A stretch of 64,000 nt of DNA from a virus. Position 1 is the stretch's first letter; every line of letters starts with the position of its first letter. The stretch is taken from positions 12,345 to 76,344 of IMG/VR virus record IMGVR_UViG_3300036859_000186. One strand, given 5' to 3'. Positions 14,564 through 30,779 of this stretch are shown here, piece by piece. The position numbers were made by a program, and so were the translations under genes. Below the pieces are notes generated by a model that saw only the letters and a list, made by a program, of their open reading frames with translations, was not told the origin of the DNA and did no database searches.

Positions 14564-14632
14564 GACTTCCTCCCCGCCGCGAAAATCGCGGCACCAACGC
14601 TGCCTTTACTCAGCACTGGCTTGTGTGAAATG

Positions 14633-14697
14633 TGTGGACAAGAGATTGCGAGGGACCATTTTTATCGCCAAAGATAACGGTCCCAATTCGGCCCACA
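14633..14697 (-). ncRNA. Y RNA-like element 1 (Ro60-binding-type stem)
   Basis: UGUGGGCCGAAUU GGGACC GUUAUC...GGUCCC...CUUGUCCACA; intergenic, about 500 nt downstream of rsr; flanking pairing extends to 14621..14715. Confidence 0.75.
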
Positions 14698-14768
14698 ACG
14701 GTTTCTGACACACAAAGGGATTTCAACGGCCCAGTCTAAGGCCCCTTGTAGCTGACTCCGCCGACTGA

Positions 14769-15197
14769 CTAGTAACGTTCTGTCGTCTTGCTGACTTTCC
14801 CTTCCTTCGTCCACTGCGCGATCAGCTTGTTCAGCTGAGTGTAGTCCGGGTTCCACACCACCACGGTTGAGCTGTGGGGAGGATGCACCGGATTCTTGAC
14901 GAACTCAGAGCGAATGACCGCTCCGAGCTTGTGCTCGGTGACGAACGCCATGAAGGCGTCCGCATAGAACTTGTGTTCCCCGAGCCACTTCTTGTAGTTC
15001 GTGCCCCAGTCCGTCACGTCGGCGAGACACAAGATGATGCACGGCGACCGCATACCCTTCTTGAGGGCGGCAGCCAGATACGTCTCAAGACTGTCGGCAT
15101 GGCACAGCCCGCCGATCTCCTGGACGCCACAGTTCTCGACGTAACCCGTTTGTCCCATGGTCAGCGCTCTCCTCGGTGAAAGTGATGGCTCATACAT
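14769..15197 (-). CDS. Hypothetical 'CCG' family protein, translationally coupled to rsr
   Basis: TAATG overlap with the rsr stop; NCGVQEIGGL...F.AFV....LGAV......NP; paralog of 7014..7367. Confidence 0.7.
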   Translation of the reverse strand: MYEPSLSPRRALTMGQTGYVENCGVQEIGGLCHADSLETYLAAALKKGMRSPCIILCLADVTDWGTNYKKWLGEHKFYADAFMAFVTEHKLGAVIRSEFVKNPVHPPHSSTVVVWNPDYTQLNKLIAQWTKEGKVSKTTERY

Positions 15198-16801
15198 TAG
15201 ACTCTCTCCGCGATGAAGTCGCTGACGATCTGGGGAGCGGCAGAATCGAATCCAGCCACGTCCAGCGTGCGACGGTCGTCCGGGTCGGCGATGGTGAAGT
15301 TCGTCGAGGTCATACCCATGACCACTTCGCAAGCGGCCGGGACGCCCATCTTCTGGCGATACTGACGGAGGGCTTGCGACGGATGGATGGCACCGGCGTA
15401 GGTCTCGTTGTCGGTGATGATGACGAAGCCATCGACCTCAACGCGGTTTTCCATGGCCCACAGGACGGGCTGAGCGCAGTCGGTGCGGCCGAAGTTGTTG
15501 CGCTGTGCAGCTCGGCACACCTCATCGAGGCGCATCTTGGGGGTGATGCCGAGGTCCACGAAGCGGTCGCAGAACCCGAACGTGTAGTAGTCCTTCTCGA
15601 CCTTGGCGGTTGCCATCGCCATAGCAGCAGCACCCTCACAGGCACTCAACGGCATGTTGGCAATTGCGGCTGTCCGCATCGAGCCAGACACGTCGATGCC
15701 GAAGACGATCCGTTTGCCGGTCGGCTTCAGAGACTTGAATGCCAGGTAGAACGCATCATCGAGAGCGTCCACAACAGCAGGCACTGGCTTCCACGCACCA
15801 TCACCCCTGACGCCGTGACCAGACGCGTAGGTCTTGAGGGCGATGAGGATCTCGATGGGGTGGACGCGTGCCTTGTTCAGCCATTCCTTGTCACCAAGGA
15901 CAGCGACAACCTTGCGCGAGGCGTCCGAGAGGGGCGCGAGAAGGCCACACTTGGAGAGGTTGCCCAGGTTGCGGATCATCGCAGTTGCAGGCATCTTCTC
16001 CAAAAGAGCAGCCCACACGTCGGGGTCCTTCAGGAATTCGGTGGGGACCATCTCTCGCGTGAGGCCGTGATTCTGGATGAGTCGGCAGAGGTCACGGGCT
16101 GACTCGGCTGACTTGGCAGCCTCAAAGCCTACGATGACCTGGGGAAGCGTGGGTCCGTCTGCCTTGTGTCCCTCGATGCCATCAACGCACCATTTGAAGA
16201 TAGCGTTCCGAGCTTCATCTGAAGTCTTCGGGTGCGCCAATCTGAGGACATCCGCATTGGACCAGCCGTCCCTCGACTGATACTTGACGACGTGTTGGGC
16301 GAGCTTTTCCGTCGGAAGGTCAAGATACCAGTTCGCCAGGGAACTCCGAAGGCCGCGCCCCAACCCACGAAATGTCGTGACGAAGGCCATGAAATGAAAG
16401 AGGTGCGTGGGGATTCGGCAGACCTTCGGGAGAGCAGCCAGTGCCAGCTTTCGAGTGGCAGGATCTGCAGCAGACGCTGCAAGAGCCAAGGCGAAAATCG
16501 CAGGATCGTTCTTCGGTGCTCGTCCTTCATCGGATACCTCCACGATGGTGCGGACCACTCTGGCACCATCCGCTTCGATACACCGGATGGTTCGTGCCGC
16601 ATTCTCCCTCGTCAGTTTCTGAGGAGACGCGTAGTAGCTCCCACCCTCACTGCCGAGGATCAGGAACCGCAGGAACGCTGCGAAGTCGTCAAGGGCATAG
16701 ACGTAGCCCCCGGCGCTGTTCTGAACCTGAGCCTCACCCAGGAGTGGTGAAGTCTGAGGCTGGGCAACACGCGGCCCAATCGAGCTGAACGGTCTCTTCA
16801 T
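15197..16801 (-). CDS. rsr: Ro60 / TROVE-domain RNA-binding protein (Rsr) with vWA domain
   Basis: NSAGGY, RFLILGSEGGSYY, GRAPK, PTHLFHF, KYQSRDGWS..DVLRLAHPK, AMIRNLG, IDVSGSM (MIDAS), TDNET, DVAGFD. Confidence 0.96.
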   Translation of the reverse strand: MKRPFSSIGPRVAQPQTSPLLGEAQVQNSAGGYVYALDDFAAFLRFLILGSEGGSYYASPQKLTRENAARTIRCIEADGARVVRTIVEVSDEGRAPKNDPAIFALALAASAADPATRKLALAALPKVCRIPTHLFHFMAFVTTFRGLGRGLRSSLANWYLDLPTEKLAQHVVKYQSRDGWSNADVLRLAHPKTSDEARNAIFKWCVDGIEGHKADGPTLPQVIVGFEAAKSAESARDLCRLIQNHGLTREMVPTEFLKDPDVWAALLEKMPATAMIRNLGNLSKCGLLAPLSDASRKVVAVLGDKEWLNKARVHPIEILIALKTYASGHGVRGDGAWKPVPAVVDALDDAFYLAFKSLKPTGKRIVFGIDVSGSMRTAAIANMPLSACEGAAAMAMATAKVEKDYYTFGFCDRFVDLGITPKMRLDEVCRAAQRNNFGRTDCAQPVLWAMENRVEVDGFVIITDNETYAGAIHPSQALRQYRQKMGVPAACEVVMGMTSTNFTIADPDDRRTLDVAGFDSAAPQIVSDFIAERV

Positions 16802-16989: not shown

Positions 16990-17409
16990 CTAGTCGGTCA
17001 TGTCCTGGTCTACATCGAGCATCCCAGGCGCATCGCCCAGGATGAGAGTGTTTTGATTCGTTCGCACGTCCCCATCGTTGAAGCGGATGAAGAAGTGGTC
17101 AGGATTGATTGTGCACCTGTAGTAAGTGAGTTTCGAGCCCTCAATAAGTGGAGGGTCCACCTTGATTACGTGGTGGCACGTAGGGCATGACAACTTGGCT
17201 AGACAGTTTTGCACATGACGGTGCCACGCATCGCCAAAGCGCGTTATCCCCATGGGCTGCCCAGGAACAATCGTGGGCGCATTGGCTATTGGAGTTATCC
17301 TCTGGAGGAAGTCTCTGGCCGGTTCCCGGTATGGAGGGAGGGCCAGCTGAGTAGGGCGGCGTTCCACCCTCGGCTTCCTCTGTTCCTCCTTGAAGTCGTC
17401 CATCTTCAT
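16990..17409 (-). CDS. Hypothetical Zn-ribbon protein
   Basis: CPTC...C...H; ORF track. Confidence 0.6.
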   Translation of the reverse strand: MKMDDFKEEQRKPRVERRPTQLALPPYREPARDFLQRITPIANAPTIVPGQPMGITRFGDAWHRHVQNCLAKLSCPTCHHVIKVDPPLIEGSKLTYYRCTINPDHFFIRFNDGDVRTNQNTLILGDAPGMLDVDQDMTD

Positions 17410-17813
17410 TTCTACCGCCTCTCCTCATCGACACGCAGTAGCTCTTCCTGTCGCCGTCGCCGTCTTGCGATGGGCACTAGGTATTGTCGCTCCAGTGACT
17501 CCAACGCGTTCCTTAGTTCCAGGGACGCATCTATCGCATCTTCGCGGCCTCCATTTTCTTGGGCAAGAGCATATTTGACGAAAGCAACAAGGAGTCGTTC
17601 TTGGCGCTGGTTCATGGTTAGCTCTCCTTTTGGCATGCGCCAACATCCCCATGAGCTGGTGTCAGGTCGGCCCCACAGTAGGGGCACAGGCCAGCCTCAA
17701 CACATACTCGGATGTAGCGCTCCAGCTCACGGCGCTGACTTAGACGATCCTCTGCCTTCAGGAGGATGCGAGTATCGAGTATGGGGCTCTTCAACATGAG
17801 CTACCTCAAAAGT

Positions 17814-17881
17814 GCGTCGGATAAATTTCGTAGGCAGCGGTTTTATCTTAGAAGGATAACGCTACCAGAGCGACCCGACAC
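17814..17881 (-). ncRNA. Y RNA-like element 2
   Basis: GUGUCGGGUCG...GGUAGC GUUAUC...GCUGCC...UUUAUCCGACGC; same motif as element 1 with compensatory changes. Confidence 0.72.
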
Positions 17882-17889
17882 GTCAAATT

Positions 17890-17994
17890 TGGTGGAGGCT
17901 TGATAGGCATATGGACAGAGCGGAGCGGTGATGAGGAGACACAATGCTCGTCAATCGTTGCTGCGTAATCTGCCGCCAACCCACAACAGCCCCC
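17890..17994 (-). ncRNA. Rod-like RNA with Ala-type acceptor stem and encoded CCA
   Basis: 5' GGGGGCU / 3' AGCCUCC-A-CCA (G3.U70, A73); interior is a long imperfect hairpin with no D or T loop; sits between two Y-like RNAs with 8-nt spacers. Confidence 0.55.
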
Positions 17995-18002
17995 ATAAAT
18001 AG

Positions 18003-18103
18003 TGGAGCCAAGGACAAGTGTTTGCAGAGGGGTATTCCTGTGCGCTGCCTTTCGGCCCGCTTCTAGGTGCCAGATAACCCTCATGCGTCGGCCCTAGGCT
18101 CCA
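18003..18103 (-). ncRNA. Y RNA-like element 3
   Basis: UGGAGCCUAGGGCCGA...GAGG GUUAUC...(GCC GAAA GGC)...CCCCUC...CUUGUCCUUGGCUCCA. Confidence 0.72.
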
Positions 18104-18249
18104 AGCTTACTTCCTTGATTCTGGATACAGCACGTCGAGAACTTTCTTTTGCTCACCCTTCGCAAGGTCGGGGAGCATGGTCAGTAGGAGCCTTTCTAGC
18201 TCCTTCACGCGTGCCTCCAGAACTTGAACGTGCTTGAAATAGTCCATGG

Positions 18250-18693
18250 CTATTCATCCCTTATGGTCTTGTGCCAGAAGGCAACGGTGTTCTTGGTCCG
18301 CTTGTTGAAAAATTCGAACCCCTTCCACCAGCCAAACTTTTCGAGGATGTGAGCCTCAGCTGGGTTGCCAGTCATGTTGACCGTAGCAGCGAGGCTCGAA
18401 TATCCGAACTCTCTGGCGATGGCTTCCTTGAAGGGCATCAGTGCTTGAGCAATACCCTGCTTTTGATGCTTCGTTTCGACCCATGTCTTGGTGCTCACGA
18501 GCACACCGCAACAGTTGACCTGCTCGACGAGGGTAAAGCCGCATGCCCGTTCGTTGTTCAGGAAGCCCGTGAACTCCAACAGGAACGGACTCTTGCGGAT
18601 GCGGATCTGCACGTCGCCCCACTCGTAGAACTCCTCACTGAGGGTTCTAATAGATGCAACGGCCTTTGGCACGTCACGAATTGAGAATGGCAT
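18250..18693 (-). CDS. GNAT-family N-acetyltransferase
   Basis: Motif A V...HQKQGIAQAL; ATV...N....ILEKFGW; also has a CCG motif. Confidence 0.8.
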   Translation of the reverse strand: MPFSIRDVPKAVASIRTLSEEFYEWGDVQIRIRKSPFLLEFTGFLNNERACGFTLVEQVNCCGVLVSTKTWVETKHQKQGIAQALMPFKEAIAREFGYSSLAATVNMTGNPAEAHILEKFGWWKGFEFFNKRTKNTVAFWHKTIRDE

Positions 18694-18832
18694 TAGAGGG
18701 TCCTCCGCAATGCTTCGCAGACCATTTCGATCTTGGTCTGGATGTCTTCCAGATCAGCGATCTGATCTAGGGTGGCGATGCGTTCTTTCAGATCGAGGGT
18801 AAATGGAGCGTGGCGCATGGCACCATTGGGGG

Positions 18833-18907
18833 TGGCGGGACGGCGTGGACTCGAACCACGAACCTTTCGTTTTGGAGACGAACACTCTGCCATTGAGCTA
18901 CCGACCC
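18833..18907 (-). tRNA. tRNA-Trp (CCA)
   Basis: GGGUCGG UA GCUC AAUGGCA GAGU G UUCGU CU-CCA-AA ACGAA AGGUU CGUGG UUCGAGU CCACG CCGUCCC G CCA. Confidence 0.93.
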
Positions 18908-19611
18908 CTTTCGCAAAATGCGCGAAGTAAAATTCCCTAGATTTTGCCACCAAGACGAACGATTTCGAGTTCGACTTCCTCAGCGGCTTTAGTTATGGCC
19001 TTTGCTACACACTGATGGCCATCTTCATCTGCTTTCGTGGCAAGGCGAGCCAAGACATCCCAATAGCCACTATCAGTCACGATCTTATCGAGTTCCACTT
19101 TGTGTTGGTGTCGCATGATTCTCTCGACAGTCAGGGCTATTTCTACAAGCACAATTCTTTGCAGATTGTGTGCCTCTGAGAATCCTCTGACACTCCGCGA
19201 CGATGGCGTCTTCGGTTGACAACGAGTAGTGCTCCATCTCACAGCCTCCAGTGTAGACCACGTAGAAGACCAGAGCGATGAAGACTACCCGATGCCAGTG
19301 AATCATCTACTTGACCGATCCCAGCTGAATGAGCGGCGCCGTCGAGGTGAGAAGTGACGCGATGAACAATCCTGCCCAGAACTTCGATCTCATGACATGA
19401 GCCTCCAGAGGTAACGAAACAAGCGGACGAACCAGAAGCCTGGCGCGGCCACAGCGAGTATGACACCCGCCAACACAGCGGCATCATTGGGTCGGCTGAT
19501 CAGGTAGAGCGCTTGGGTGAGCGCCAGTGATGTGAGCAGCACGAGAAGGACTTCACGAAGGACCCGAAGGACGGACCAGTATGTCGGCATAGTGTCTCCA
19601 AACACGAAAAA

Positions 19612-19688
19612 GGGAGGTGACATGGATGAGTGGTTGTCCAGGGAACATTTGGAAGGTAACCCTAGAACGCCGACCCATGTCATCTCCC
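19612..19688 (-). ncRNA. Y RNA-like element 4
   Basis: GGGAGAUGACAUGGGUCGG...CUAGG GUUACC...CCCUGG...CUCAUCCAUGUCACCUCCC followed by U5; intergenic. Confidence 0.68.
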
Positions 19689-19710: not shown

Positions 19711-20529
19711 CTAACGACTTGGCATGAGAATTGGATGACCCTCGTCACCAACCTCCTTGTAAAGCGCTTCTTTCAGCTGATACATAGCTCGTGCCCACAG
19801 CGCTACTGCGTCCGGTGAGGCCGCTTGCAGCACCATTGGGAATTCCCGAGCTGTCTTCTTGAAGTAGTTCTCTGCCCAACGACGGGCATCCTTCGGCTTG
19901 ATTCGACAGCCCTCAGGCTTCGTGAGCATTCGAGTCATGTCGTTCAGGTTGTCGGCCCGGTCTAGAGTCTTAAGTGAGGCCGCGTCCTGATCGTTCGATA
20001 TCTTCGAGTAGTAGACCACCTTCATGGCCGCTTGAAGGTCTTCGGGCGTCTCGTCCTTCCAATCCTTCGTGAGGAGCATGACAAGATCGACCGTTCGGTC
20101 TGGGAACTTTAACGCAATGAGGTCGTGCTGCATGATATAAGTGTCTTCCACCACATCGTGGAGCAATGCTGCTGCCTGTGCTTCCTCATTGAGGCCGATG
20201 TCACGAGCCATCTCGAACACCCGAATGGGATGCACGATGTATGGGTCATCGAAGGCTTTACGCTTCTGTGAGATGTGTGCAGCCGTCGCACACTCCAGCG
20301 CTACATTGATGAGCGTATCGCCTTCAGGTTCAGCCACAGGAATCTCCGTATAGGGTGGTCGCGTCCTAATCAAGTGGTGCTTGCAGACAGGGCAGTCGCC
20401 CCAGCTGTAAGTCTCTGAATGGACGGGGTGAGCGATGGGGATTAGGCACCACTCACACCACAATTCATCTGCCATAGCACTAGTTCCTTCGAGGAACAAA
20501 AGCTTTTCGTCGAGTGAGCGCCAAGGCAT
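19711..20529 (-). CDS. HD-domain small alarmone ((p)ppGpp) hydrolase, RelA/SpoT-HD/Mesh1-like, with N-terminal Zn ribbon
   Basis: AHISQKRK...PYIVHPIRV...AALLHDVVEDT...LTK...KTLDRADNL. Confidence 0.88.
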   Translation of the reverse strand: MPWRSLDEKLLFLEGTSAMADELWCEWCLIPIAHPVHSETYSWGDCPVCKHHLIRTRPPYTEIPVAEPEGDTLINVALECATAAHISQKRKAFDDPYIVHPIRVFEMARDIGLNEEAQAAALLHDVVEDTYIMQHDLIALKFPDRTVDLVMLLTKDWKDETPEDLQAAMKVVYYSKISNDQDAASLKTLDRADNLNDMTRMLTKPEGCRIKPKDARRWAENYFKKTAREFPMVLQAASPDAVALWARAMYQLKEALYKEVGDEGHPILMPSR

Positions 20530-21017: not shown

Positions 21018-21146
21018 TGGTGGGTCGTGGTGGATTCGAACCTGCCCAGATCCCTCTCCCGTGGACATCTATCGTTACCCCACTACTGTTGCCGAGGAGG
21101 CCCCAGCAGTGACGATAGCCCAGCCGTCCCAGCTGGCTGACGACCC
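21018..21146 (-). ncRNA. tRNA-like RNA with greatly extended anticodon arm
   Basis: Acceptor GGGUCGU/ACGACCC-A-CCA; D-like arm GCC..GG..GGC; T loop GG-UUCGAAU-CC; anticodon arm replaced by a long hairpin (CUAUCGU/ACGAUAG, CACUGCUG/CAGUAGUG). Confidence 0.65.
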
Positions 21147-23677: not shown

Positions 23678-23863
23678 TGGAGTGCTGGGGGTTCAGACTC
23701 TCAAACTTTAGGGACCTATCCGCCTACGAACGACTTCCACCATTGTCGAGCGAACCCAACACACGTGTCCATCGAGTGACAGCTATAATAATGGAATCCC
23801 ACTCAATTACCATGGTCAGTGAGCTTCGATTCCCAAGGCAAATCCTCTCTACTCCAGCTCCCC
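23678..23863 (-). ncRNA. Candidate structured RNA with Ala-like terminal stem
   Basis: 5' GGGGAGCUGG pairs with 3' CCAGCACUCC-A (G3.U70); internal helices UUCCAUUAUU/AAUGGUGGAA and GGAAUC/GAUUCC; non-coding gap. Confidence 0.4.
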
Positions 23864-23865
23864 TT

Positions 23866-23947
23866 GTTATCGCAAATGCTTTACCGCTAAGCTACCAGCC
23901 CCATTGCTGGGGCCGGGGTGGGTTCGAACCACCGACCTTTTGCGAAC
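23866..23947 (-). ncRNA. Circularly permuted tRNA-like RNA (YrlA-type tRNA-mimic domain)
   Basis: UCGCAAA AGGUC GGUGG UUCGAAC CCACC CCGGCCCCA-GCAA-UGGGGCUGG UA GCUU AGCGGUA AAGC A UUUGCGA. The T arm precedes the D arm and the acceptor stem is closed by a GNRA loop. Confidence 0.85.
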
Positions 23948-23990
23948 TTGGGCACGCTTCGTTCAAGAATGATTGCCCGTCCCCCCAACC

Positions 23991-30419: not shown

Positions 30420-30532
30420 GCCGGGCTCGGCAGGGCAAATTGCGTTAGGGTTGAATATCGGAGCTTACAGCTCCTTCGCGGCGGGAACCCTACATTCTCG
30501 GGGGCCAGGTCTAAAGCCTGTGTCCCCGGCCA
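30420..30532 (+). ncRNA. Candidate tRNA-like structured RNA
   Basis: GCCGGG/CCCGGC-CA ends; UAGGGUU/AACCCUA enclosing GGAGC-UUACA-GCUCC; CAGG-UCUAAAG-CCUG T-like arm; 6 nt upstream of tRNA-Gly. Confidence 0.45.
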
Positions 30533-30538
30533 TTTTGA

Positions 30539-30613
30539 GCCACTGTAGTATAACGGTAGTATCCTTGCCTTCCAAGCAGGTGGGTGCGAGTTCGACTCTC
30601 GCCAGCCGCTCCA
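30539..30613 (+). tRNA. tRNA-Gly (TCC), acceptor stem with two mismatches
   Basis: CUUGC CU-UCC-AA GCAGG; T arm GCGAG UUCGACU CUCGC; U73-CCA; acceptor GCCACUG/CAGCCGC. Confidence 0.85.
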
Positions 30614-30779
30614 TGCCGGGGCGGTGCACACAAACTCTTCCCCGGCCCCAATCTATTTAGCAGCGTCCGAAACTACCTTGATTGGTCAACACCAAGCGAC
30701 GCCTCCGGTGAATCCCGGCCCTGGTTGGTGATCCTAACTCCAGGCTGCTAACTACCTTTTAATCACGAGCATCTCTCGC

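What the first reader, a model, noticed from the sequence alone, without database searches (positions are those of the whole stretch)
17890..17994. Rod-shaped RNA with alanine identity elements and CCA between two Y-like RNAs
The ends form GGGGGCU/AGCCUCC-A-CCA, giving G3.U70 and A73, the established minimal AlaRS determinants also used by tmRNA and minihelices. The interior is a long bulged hairpin (GGCAGA/UCUGUC, GAG/CUC and others) without D or T loops. It sits in a tight three-RNA array with 8-nt spacers, like a tRNA operon. Inference: an aminoacylatable non-decoding RNA, acting as an Ala donor or as a synthetase/EF-Tu/RelA decoy.
Basis: partly seen in the sequence, partly recalled or inferred. 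Interest (0 to 1): 0.78.

Follow-up and report, generated by a model that had tools for sequence, protein, structure and literature searches.

The report
Alanine-type tRNA-end mimic between phage Y RNAs
A soil phage carries, wedged between two genuine Y RNA genes next to its Ro60 gene, a 105-base hairpin whose tip copies the acceptor end of an alanine tRNA; it most likely serves as a handle for tRNA-processing enzymes, and nothing shows whether it is ever loaded with alanine.

Summary
On the minus strand, 17890-17994 reads GGGGGCU...AGCCUCC-A-CCA. It fills the gap between two RNAs (8-nt spacers) that I confirmed as bacterial-type Y RNAs, about 1 kb upstream of a phage Ro60/Rsr gene.

It is not a tRNA, a tmRNA or a Y RNA by ARAGORN, Rfam or a Y-RNA covariance model built here. 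The overlapping 78-aa ORF has no homologue.

The terminal stem is robust. The interior "rod" folds no better than shuffled sequence, and no sequence homologue exists in 84 searched sources, so covariation could not be tested.

In related phage arrays, the slot just 5' of this Y-RNA type often holds a CCA-ended tRNA or a CCA-ended non-tRNA hairpin: 5 of 43 Y RNAs against 1.4% of random anchors.

The alanine marks are real. The stem plus A73 is letter-identical to 54 genuine tRNA-Ala genes. But the best positional counterpart (L150) lacks G3:U70.

Best reading: a tRNA-acceptor-end mimic cut out by RNase P and ended at its encoded CCA, which punctuates the Y-RNA array. It is chargeable in principle, untested.

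Closest known: TLD-only tmRNA of phage DS6A, and the RNase P-cleaved, CCA-tailed YrlA of M. smegmatis.

This scan has noted similar CCA-ended hairpins in other phage Ro60 arrays before. Verdict: new variant of a known kind, moderate interest.

The parts
17890..17994 (-). RNA2: a 105-nt hairpin RNA with a tRNA-Ala-type acceptor end (the finding)
   Evidence: Sequence. Fold. No tRNA, tmRNA or Y RNA match. No homologue.
17988..17994 (-). 5' strand of the acceptor-like stem, GGGGGCU (G3 at 17992)
   Evidence: Pair probabilities 0.94-1.0. Identical to the 5' strand of 54 tRNA-Ala genes.
17890..17900 (-). 3' strand AGCCUCC (U70 at 17896), discriminator A (17893), encoded CCA (17890-17892)
   Evidence: The phage's tRNA-Trp, tRNA-Gly and the tRNA-like RNA at 21018-21146 also encode CCA.
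18003..18103 (-). RNA1: a Y RNA with the bulged helix AGGGCCGA/CUUGUCCU, the GGGUUAUC motif and a larger apical insert. Its 3' end lies 8 nt before RNA2.
   Evidence: The motif matches the consensus of the covarying Y family. Model R2 did not hit it, because its interior differs.
17809..17884 (-). RNA3: a minimal Y RNA (CGGGUCG/UUUAUCCG helix, GCGUUAUCC...GAUAAAACCGCUGCC inner hairpin). Its stem starts 8 nt after RNA2's CCA.
   Evidence: nhmmer homologues. Alignment with 9 of 21 covarying pairs. R2 score 84 bits.
15197..16801 (-). Ro60/Rsr orthologue (TROVE + Ro60 vWA domains), the expected ligand of the Y RNAs
   Evidence: Pfam E 1.6e-60 and 4.2e-40. PHROG 850. Thousands of homologues.
14626..14702 (-). 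Another minimal Y RNA of the same family, downstream of Ro60
   Evidence: R2 41.1 bits, E 3e-9.
19614..19684 (-). A weaker Y RNA copy
   Evidence: R2 17.2 bits, E 0.035. Rfam nematode sbRNA (a Y-RNA homologue family) 26.9 bits.
18833..18907 (-). tRNA-Trp(CCA) with encoded CCA, on the same strand about 0.8 kb upstream
21018..21146 (-). A second CCA-ended tRNA-like RNA. Acceptor GGGUCGU/ACGACCC-A-CCA (G3:C70), GGUUCGAAUCC T loop, and a ~60-nt hairpin in place of the anticodon arm.

Best explanation
RNA2 is a small non-coding RNA gene that keeps only the acceptor end of a tRNA: a 7-bp stem, a discriminator A and an encoded CCA. It sits in a 'tRNA slot' of a co-transcribed array of Y RNAs upstream of a phage Ro60 gene.

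Inferred mechanism. The host's tRNA-maturation machinery treats it like a pre-tRNA. RNase P cuts at G17994, which also frees the 3' side of Y RNA1. Downstream cleavage in the AU-rich 8-nt spacer, followed by exonucleolytic trimming back to the CCA, frees the 5' side of Y RNA3. This leaves a stable CCA-ended hairpin.

Its end is that of an alanine tRNA. The released RNA should therefore be a substrate for AlaRS in principle. The comparative data, however, point to the tRNA-type end as the recurring feature of the slot, not to alanine identity.

Shown here: the sequence features, the independent folding of the stem, the Y-RNA identity of both neighbours, the enrichment of CCA-ended tRNAs and hairpins in this slot, and the identity of the stem to natural tRNA-Ala stems.

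Inferred, not shown: transcription, RNase P cleavage, 3' trimming and any charging.
For: (1) The ends fit the gap exactly. RNA2 is separated by 8-nt spacers from two verified Y RNAs. The chance of a 7-bp GC-rich stem + NCCA landing in such a slot is about 3.5e-4, estimated from the background of 41-44 per strand per 64 kb.

(2) The terminal stem forms with probability 0.94-1.0 in the 326-nt context, and the three RNAs fold independently.

(3) All four tRNA or tRNA-like genes of this phage encode CCA.

(4) Among 43 Y RNAs hit by model R2 in related loci, 5 have a CCA-ended 7-bp stem ending within 12 nt upstream, against 1.4% of 8600 random anchors. Three of these are true tRNAs (L155 Arg, L045 Ser, L152 Glu). 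Two are non-tRNA hairpins (RNA2 and L150 132-195). L008 has a weak tRNA-Trp in the same place.

(5) L005, with one of the closest Ro60 genes in IMG/VR (58%), has an 85-nt tmRNA-TLD-like Ala-type RNA 8 nt after a Y RNA.

(6) The acceptor stem plus A73 is identical to 54 genuine tRNA-Ala genes.

(7) No promoter or terminator consensus was found inside 17300-19300 on the gene strand, consistent with one long transcript that needs cutting.

(8) There is published precedent. M. smegmatis YrlA is cut by RNase P and receives CCA in vivo, and YrlA and YrlB come from a single precursor (PMC4201824).
Against: No expression data exist: the only public run holding the locus is DNA.

No homologue of RNA2 was found, so there is no covariation for any pair.

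The interior folds no better than shuffled sequence. The whole molecule is z -1.7 only.

U(-1) can pair with A73 and extend the stem to 8 bp. In a substrate without a T arm this might shift the RNase P cut.

A punctuation role does not explain why the interior is 87 nt long, nor why the Ala-type G1-G4/A73 set is kept.

Only 5 of 43 Y RNAs have such a neighbour, so Y RNAs can be released without one.
Confidence: 0.6

Rival explanations
1. RNA2 is charged with alanine by the host AlaRS, and that charging is its selected function. It would act as a non-decoding Ala-RNA: a donor for a tRNA-dependent transferase, or a sink or decoy for AlaRS or EF-Tu.
For: The complete identity set is present: G3:U70 within G1-G4/C69-C72, A73, and a single-stranded CCA. 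The 7-bp stem plus A73 is identical to natural tRNA-Ala genes.

Ala-type ends recur among non-tRNA CCA-ended RNAs near Y RNAs: L005 3784-3868, L045 3612-3686 and L155 4415-4613.

At least 36 TLD-like Ala-type RNAs of 79-130 nt turned up in IMG/VR contigs.

From established knowledge, not tested here: minihelix and microhelix substrates with G3:U70 are charged by AlaRS (Francklyn and Schimmel 1989).
Against: The positional counterpart in L150 has C3:G70 and U73. L045 3111-3170 and the window's own 21018-21146 element also lack G3:U70.

RNA2 has no T arm, so the SmpB-titration idea proposed for TLD-only tmRNA (PMC4131195) does not transfer to it.

No aminoacyl-tRNA-using enzyme was recognised nearby.

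No conservation data exist.
Confidence: 0.2
2. RNA2 is a decaying remnant of a tRNA-Ala or TLD-only tmRNA gene with no function of its own.
For: It is an orphan sequence. Its interior is not more structured than random. The related phage L005 has a fuller TLD version in the same kind of place.
Against: Both strands of the stem remain perfectly complementary over 7 bp, and the CCA is intact, while the 87 nt between them keep no tRNA feature. That pattern is hard to reconcile with neutral decay.

The element still fills its slot to within 8 nt on both sides.
Confidence: 0.1
3. RNA2 is a divergent third Y RNA bound by Ro60. Its terminal GGG/UCC, with the G.U wobble, would be the Ro60-binding helix.
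For: Y RNAs of this family have a conserved GGG.../...UCC helix with a G.U. L030 has three Y RNAs in tandem, and nhmmer aligns RNA2's GGGGGCUG with the middle one's GUGGGCUGAAG.
Against: Model R2 gave no hit with filters off at E<=10. Rfam gave no YrlA or Y_RNA hit.

The bulged C, the following G.U/A-U pairs and the GUUAYC motif are all absent. The wobble sits in a different register. There is no outer stem below the GGG.
Confidence: 0.05
4. There is no RNA gene here: the stem is a chance inverted repeat, or the region encodes the 78-aa ORF 17848-18084.
For: Stem + NCCA combinations are common by chance. The fold z-scores are weak.
Against: The ORF has no homologue and no family match. It also overlaps two RNAs that are conserved as RNAs.

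The exact fit to the slot and the parallel arrangements in L150, L008, L045 and L155 argue against chance.
Confidence: 0.05

Closest known systems
TLD-only ('tag-less') tmRNA of mycobacteriophage DS6A (Hudson, Lau and Williams 2014, PMC4131195)
   Same: It is phage-encoded, non-decoding, and has an Ala-type acceptor stem with G3:U70, A73 and CCA. The related locus L005 carries such an RNA (Rfam tmRNA 31.2 bits, E 4e-9) right next to a Y RNA.
   Different: RNA2 has no T arm and no tmRNA-type 5' D-loop analogue, and it gives no Rfam tmRNA hit. The proposed SmpB titration therefore has no structural basis here.
YrlA of Mycobacterium smegmatis, cut by RNase P in its acceptor-like stem and given CCA in vivo (Chen et al. 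2014, PMC4201824)
   Same: It is an RNA of the Ro60 locus with a 7-bp acceptor-like stem. It is handled by RNase P and ends in CCA. It is processed together with another Y RNA from a single precursor. The authors raise possible aminoacylation.
   Different: In YrlA the acceptor-like stem is part of the Ro60-bound RNA and comes with D and T arms. RNA2 is a separate molecule with no Ro60-binding motif, and its CCA is encoded.
Synthetic minihelix-Ala and microhelix-Ala substrates of AlaRS (Francklyn and Schimmel 1989; my own knowledge, paper not read here)
   Same: It is a hairpin with a G3:U70 acceptor helix, A73 and CCA, and no anticodon.
   Different: Those are laboratory constructs of 24-35 nt. 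RNA2 is a natural 105-nt gene, and its charging is untested.
tRNA-like punctuation elements: RNase P model hairpin substrates with 3' RCCA, tRNAs that separate genes in polycistronic transcripts, mascRNA at the MALAT1 3' end (my own knowledge)
   Same: A tRNA-shaped or acceptor-shaped module lets RNase P define the ends of neighbouring RNAs.
   Different: No such role has been described for Y-RNA arrays. RNA2 lacks the T arm that natural punctuation elements keep.
Phage T4 RNAC and RNAD, small stable RNAs in the tRNA gene cluster with unknown roles (PMC3014915)
   Same: They are non-tRNA stable RNAs encoded among phage tRNA genes.
   Different: There is no known link to Ro60 or Y RNAs. I made no sequence or structure comparison here.

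Membership tests
Canonical tRNA (Rfam RF00005 / ARAGORN) | Cloverleaf with D arm, anticodon arm and T arm | tested here: not met
   No ARAGORN call. No RF00005 hit even at E<=10. The 17 nt before the 3' acceptor strand cannot form a T arm.
Canonical tRNA (Rfam RF00005 / ARAGORN) | 7-bp acceptor stem, discriminator base, 3' CCA | tested here: met
   GGGGGCU/AGCCUCC-A-CCA. Pair probabilities 0.94-1.0.
tmRNA / TLD-only tmRNA (RF00023) | Ala-type acceptor (G3:U70, A73, CCA) | tested here: met
tmRNA / TLD-only tmRNA (RF00023) | T arm with GGUUCGA-type loop, preceded by GGAC, and a 5' GGNUUCGAC-like D-loop analogue | tested here: not met
   No RF00023 or RF04321 hit at E<=10. L005 3784-3868 scores 31.2 bits. 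RNA2 shares only a GCAGAUU(A)CGC-like string with L005, which I read by eye in the sequences and did not test statistically.
Bacterial/phage Y RNA (YrlA RF02553; minimal Y family, model R2) | Bulged Ro60-binding helix GGGY[C]G / UURUCC under an outer stem | tested here: not met
   Model R2 with filters off finds three Y RNAs in the window but not RNA2 at E<=10. No YrlA hit. Only GGG/UCC is shared, in a different register.
Bacterial/phage Y RNA (YrlA RF02553; minimal Y family, model R2) | GUUAYC motif in the inner stem | tested here: not met
   Absent from the sequence. Invariant in the 13-member alignment.
AlaRS minimal substrates (minihelix/microhelix-Ala class) | G3:U70 in a continuous acceptor helix with G1:C72, G2:C71 and G4:C69, plus A73 and a free CCA | tested here: met
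   Identical over 7 bp + A73 to 54 tRNA-Ala(UGC/GGC/CGC) genes of GTDB genomes.
AlaRS minimal substrates (minihelix/microhelix-Ala class) | Actual aminoacylation with alanine | not testable with these tools
   Needs an in vitro charging assay or an acid-gel northern.
RNase P hairpin substrates | Acceptor-type helix of at least 7 bp with 3' RCCA and a single-stranded 5' leader | tested here: met
   7 bp + ACCA, with leader ...ACUAUUUAU and U at -1.
RNase P hairpin substrates | Cleavage at +1 by RNase P | not testable with these tools
   Needs an M1 RNA or holoenzyme assay.

The most novel reading that the evidence does not exclude
RNA2 is a natural, T-arm-less 'minihelix-Ala'. It would be released from the Y-RNA array, charged by the host AlaRS during infection, and used as a non-decoding alanyl-RNA. 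Possible uses are feeding a tRNA-dependent transferase, or soaking up AlaRS, EF-Tu or an acceptor-end-directed host defence enzyme. That would make alanine-type tRNA-end mimics a working part of phage Ro60/Y-RNA modules.
Probability: 0.2. Interest if true: 0.75.

Novelty: new variant of a known kind. Interest (0 to 1): 0.45.

Why it matters
Bacterial and phage Ro60/Y-RNA systems remain poorly understood. Their known link to tRNA is mimicry inside the Y RNA itself (YrlA).

Here, and in several related phage loci, free-standing CCA-ended tRNA-end mimics and true tRNAs are interleaved with Y RNAs at fixed 5-9 nt spacings. This suggests that Y-RNA biogenesis in phages rides on the tRNA-processing machinery.

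It also provides a natural molecule on which to test whether AlaRS charges an anticodon-less, T-arm-less RNA in vivo.

If the alanine end proves functional, it would extend the small class of non-decoding aminoacyl-RNAs (tmRNA, TLD-only tmRNA). If not, the element is still a compact example of tRNA-type punctuation outside tRNA operons.

Tried and rejected
- Sequence homologues. blastn-short and nhmmer of RNA2 against 80 IMG/VR Ro60 loci gave nothing beyond chance 12-13-mers. A single-sequence covariance model (R1) over 84 sources hit only itself. blastn against 50,697 phage records found no match for the whole intergenic region.
- Close relatives through Ro60. The single-protein scan of IMG/VR found none. 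The best Ro60 relatives (59-63% identity) come from Logan and ENA assemblies.
- IMG/VR scan with a loose Y-RNA pattern. It returned 67 loci, of which 64 were chance matches.
- Expression. No RNA holder is listed for the locus; the only run is DNA, from soil, and is probably the source sample.
- tmRNA reading of RNA2: rejected.
- Y-RNA reading: rejected.
- Coding reading: rejected.
- Host inference from the acceptor stem. The exact stem occurs in tRNA-Ala genes of many phyla, including Dehalococcoidia, Armatimonadota, Deinococcus, Actinomycetota, Planctomycetota and Melainabacteria. It therefore says nothing about the host.
- GNAT next door as an aminoacyl-tRNA acetyltransferase. No informative PDB, NCBIfam or PHROG relative was found.
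- CCA-adding enzyme and SmpB in the phage. No Pfam match in the 76-kb record.
- One review (PMC10870794) is not held in the library.

Full report
WHAT IS THERE

The window is part of a complete 76,344-bp virus record with direct terminal repeats. The only public run holding the locus is a soil metagenome.

The finding lies on the minus strand. Read 5'->3' from 17994 to 17890, the RNA is GGGGGCU-(87 nt)-AGCCUCC-A-CCA. The seven terminal pairs are G1:C72, G2:C71, G3:U70, G4:C69, G5:C68, C6:G67 and U7:A66. They are followed by an unpaired A and CCA.

ARAGORN finds only tRNA-Trp (18833-18907, -) and tRNA-Gly (30539-30613, +) in the window. Rfam finds nothing at 17890-17994, even at E<=10. The described features are therefore present, and the element is not a cloverleaf tRNA or a tmRNA.

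THE NEIGHBOURHOOD

The gene at 15197-16801 (-) is a Ro60/Rsr orthologue: Pfam vWA_Ro60 E 1.6e-60, TROVE E 4.2e-40, PHROG 850.

The 309-nt gap between two small ORFs (17798-18106) is filled completely by three hairpins that fold independently.

The downstream one (RNA3, 17809-17884) has nhmmer homologues upstream of Ro60 genes in other phage contigs. A pattern scan of JGI metagenomes added a dozen more. An alignment of 13 members gives a consensus structure in which 9 of 21 pairs show compensatory changes. It also has a conserved bulged helix GGG(Y)CG/UU(R)UCC with a G.U wobble and an invariant GCGUUAUC motif.

A covariance model of this family (R2) finds three copies in the window: 17809-17884 (84 bits), 14626-14702 (41 bits) and 19614-19684 (17 bits).

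The upstream hairpin (RNA1, 18003-18103) has the same AGGGCCGA/CUUGUCCU helix and a GGGUUAUC motif around a larger insert.

Rfam also gives a sub-threshold YrlA match at 23853-23956.

The two neighbours are therefore genuine Y RNAs. The spacers to RNA2 are 8 nt on each side.

IS IT MORE THAN CHANCE?

A bare '7-bp stem followed by NCCA' is not rare. With spans of 46-230 nt, at most one G.U and at least four G-C pairs, there are 41 on the minus strand and 44 on the plus strand of this window.

That background is about 3.5e-6 per start/end combination. The chance that such a stem starts within 10 nt of the end of RNA1 and ends within 10 nt of the start of RNA3 is therefore about 3.5e-4. This is my estimate.

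The stem is also robust: pair probabilities are 0.94-1.0 in the 326-nt context.

The interior is another matter. The whole molecule is only z -1.7 against dinucleotide shuffles. With the ends held fixed, the interior is no more stable than shuffled interiors (z -0.57). I therefore regard the acceptor-like end as real and the 'rod' as unproven.

WHAT IT IS NOT

- Not coding. The overlapping 78-aa ORF (17848-18084) has no Pfam or PHROG match and no homologue among 5.8 billion proteins. It also overlaps two RNAs that are conserved as RNAs.
- Not a Y RNA. R2 with filters off does not touch it at E<=10. The bulged C, the following G.U/A-U pairs and GUUAYC are absent. nhmmer's alignment of its GGGGGCUG to the 5' strand of a Y RNA in L030 rests on a GGG/UCC match in a different register.
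- Not a tmRNA tRNA-like domain. It has no T arm and gives no RF00023 hit.

COMPARATIVE EVIDENCE

RNA2 has no sequence homologue in 80 IMG/VR Ro60 loci, 16 metagenome loci or the phage database. No covariation test is therefore possible.

What can be compared is the slot. Of 43 R2-type Y RNAs in related loci, five have a CCA-ended 7-bp stem ending within 12 nt upstream, against 1.4% of 8600 random anchors in the same sequences.

Three of the five are ordinary tRNAs: L155 tRNA-Arg, L045 tRNA-Ser and L152 tRNA-Glu. L008 has a weak tRNA-Trp in the same position.

Two are non-tRNA hairpins: RNA2 and L150 132-195. L150 is the closest parallel. Its arrangement is [YrlA]-9 nt-[64-nt hairpin GACCGUC...GACGGUC-U-CCA]-6 nt-[a Y RNA very similar to RNA3, 81.9 bits]. 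The Y RNA and the spacer align with the window. The hairpins do not, and the L150 hairpin has C3:G70 and U73.

Further CCA-ended non-tRNA elements sit beside Y RNAs:
- L045 3111-3170: GUCGGAG/CUCCGGC-A-CCA, no G3:U70.
- L045 3612-3686: GGGGCUA/AGGCUCC-A-CCA, with a T arm.
- L155 4415-4613: GGGCCGG/CCGGUCC-A-CCA, 199 nt, with a T arm.
- L005 3784-3868: GGGGCGU/ACGCUCC-A-CCA, 85 nt, 8 nt after a Y RNA.

The L005 element matches the Rfam tmRNA model across both termini (31.2 bits, E 4e-9). It is a 'TLD-only' tmRNA.

In L004, L006, L021, L024 and L153 there are tRNA-shaped RNAs with a true acceptor end whose anticodon arm is replaced by a Ro60-binding helix.

The window itself has a second CCA-ended tRNA-like RNA, at 21018-21146, with G3:C70.

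The recurring theme is a tRNA-type acceptor end next to Y RNAs. The alanine signature is frequent but not constant.

THE ALANINE MARKS

By sequence the end of RNA2 is a complete alanine acceptor. A scan of one genome per GTDB species for the 3' strand plus a T loop returned more than 120 loci. In 54 of them the gene is a tRNA-Ala (anticodons UGC, GGC or CGC) whose 7-bp stem and discriminator are letter-identical to RNA2.

From established knowledge, not tested here: AlaRS charges minihelices and microhelices that carry G3:U70 and A73. A released RNA2 would therefore be expected to accept alanine to some degree.

Whether selection acts on this is open. The L150 counterpart argues against it. 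The Ala-type elements in L005, L045 and L155 argue that an alanine or tmRNA-derived lineage of such RNAs exists in Ro60 phages. So do at least 36 TLD-like RNAs of 79-130 nt found in IMG/VR, none of which had a Y-RNA motif within 600 nt.

MECHANISM

All genes of this arm are on the minus strand. No sigma-70-type promoter and no intrinsic terminator on that strand was found between 17300 and 19300. The three RNAs are therefore probably cut out of a longer transcript.

The phage's tRNA-Trp, tRNA-Gly and both tRNA-like RNAs encode their CCA.

I infer the following steps:
- RNase P cleaves 5' of G17994. There is a U at -1 and an RCCA 3' end, which are the features of model hairpin substrates.
- An endonucleolytic cut falls in the AU-rich spacer AAUUUGAC.
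- Exonucleolytic trimming stops at the CCA.

This would release Y RNA1 and Y RNA3 and leave a stable hairpin.

Published precedent exists. M. smegmatis YrlA is cleaved by RNase P in its 7-bp acceptor-like stem and gains CCA in vivo. YrlA and YrlB come from one precursor, and the authors mention possible aminoacylation (PMC4201824).

For TLD-only tmRNA, phage DS6A is the described case. Its proposed role is inhibition of trans-translation by titrating SmpB (PMC4131195). That role needs the T-arm/D-loop elbow, which RNA2 lacks.

VERDICT

My best explanation (0.6) is a tRNA-acceptor-end mimic gene that uses the tRNA-processing machinery to punctuate a Y-RNA array, with an alanine-type end of uncertain significance. 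The alanine-function rival stands at about 0.2.

Earlier notes of this scan describe similar CCA-ended hairpins in other phage Ro60 arrays, with the same split between 'processing mark' and 'alanine carrier' readings. I used them as leads only.

Novelty: a new variant of a known kind, namely tRNA mimicry at Ro60/Y-RNA loci and TLD-only tmRNA. Interest is moderate.

Noticed in passing
IMG/VR loci L167-L281, e.g. L216 minus strand (reverse-complement coordinates 881-961): At least 36 phage RNAs of 79-130 nt have a perfect G3:U70 acceptor stem, A73, CCA, a T arm and a tmRNA-like 5' GGNUUCGAC motif, with only a short hairpin in between. These look like TLD-only mini-tmRNAs. ARAGORN calls nothing for 18 of the 23 tested. 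Only phage DS6A is described in the paper I read.
   Followed up: partly
L004 1668-1796 and 1882-2022; L006 4421-4585 and 4671-4830; L021, L024, L153: These are tRNA-shaped RNAs with a true 7-bp acceptor end (some with CCA). Their anticodon arm is replaced by an inverted Ro60-binding helix closed by a loop. In effect they are circularly permuted YrlA-type Y RNAs whose free ends are the tRNA acceptor end.
   Followed up: partly
window 21018-21146 (-): A second CCA-ended tRNA-like RNA: acceptor GGGUCGU/ACGACCC-A-CCA, a D-like hairpin, a GGUUCGAAUCC T loop and a ~60-nt hairpin where the anticodon arm should be. Neither ARAGORN nor Rfam calls it.
   Followed up: partly
window 23853-23956 (-): A sub-threshold Rfam YrlA match (34.8 bits, E 1.4e-4). 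It has a permuted tRNA module with T arm, closed acceptor hairpin and D arm, and a degenerate Ro60-binding strand.
   Followed up: no
window 17809-17884 (-) and 13 relatives (alignment A3): The apical hairpin of the RNA3-type Y RNA is a 5-bp stem with a 7-nt loop, CUUCUAA in most members. This has the form of an anticodon loop with UCU (Arg). The stem and most of the loop are invariant across phages.
   Followed up: no
window 30494-30535 and 30610-30653 (+): tRNA-Gly(UCC) is flanked on both sides by small hairpins with GGGCC.../...GUCCCC-type stems. They give weak hits to the Y-RNA model (about 11 bits, E 2-3). They may be minimal Y-like or processing hairpins.
   Followed up: no
window 19711-20529 (-): This 272-aa HD-domain protein matches the hydrolase part of RelA/SpoT (TIGR00691 E 7.7e-18, Pfam HD_4). 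It is a candidate small alarmone hydrolase in the same arm as Ro60 and the RNAs.
   Followed up: partly
window 18250-18693 and 18107-18247 (-): A 147-aa GNAT acetyltransferase (weak Pfam match) and a 46-aa ORF lie directly upstream of the three-RNA array. No informative relative was found in PDB, NCBIfam or PHROGs.
   Followed up: partly
L163 minus strand, just upstream of its Y RNA (376-459): What looks like the 5' half of a tRNA-Arg(CCG) (acceptor strand, D arm, anticodon arm) runs straight into an RNA3-type Y RNA, with no T arm after it. It may be a truncated or fused tRNA/Y arrangement.
   Followed up: no
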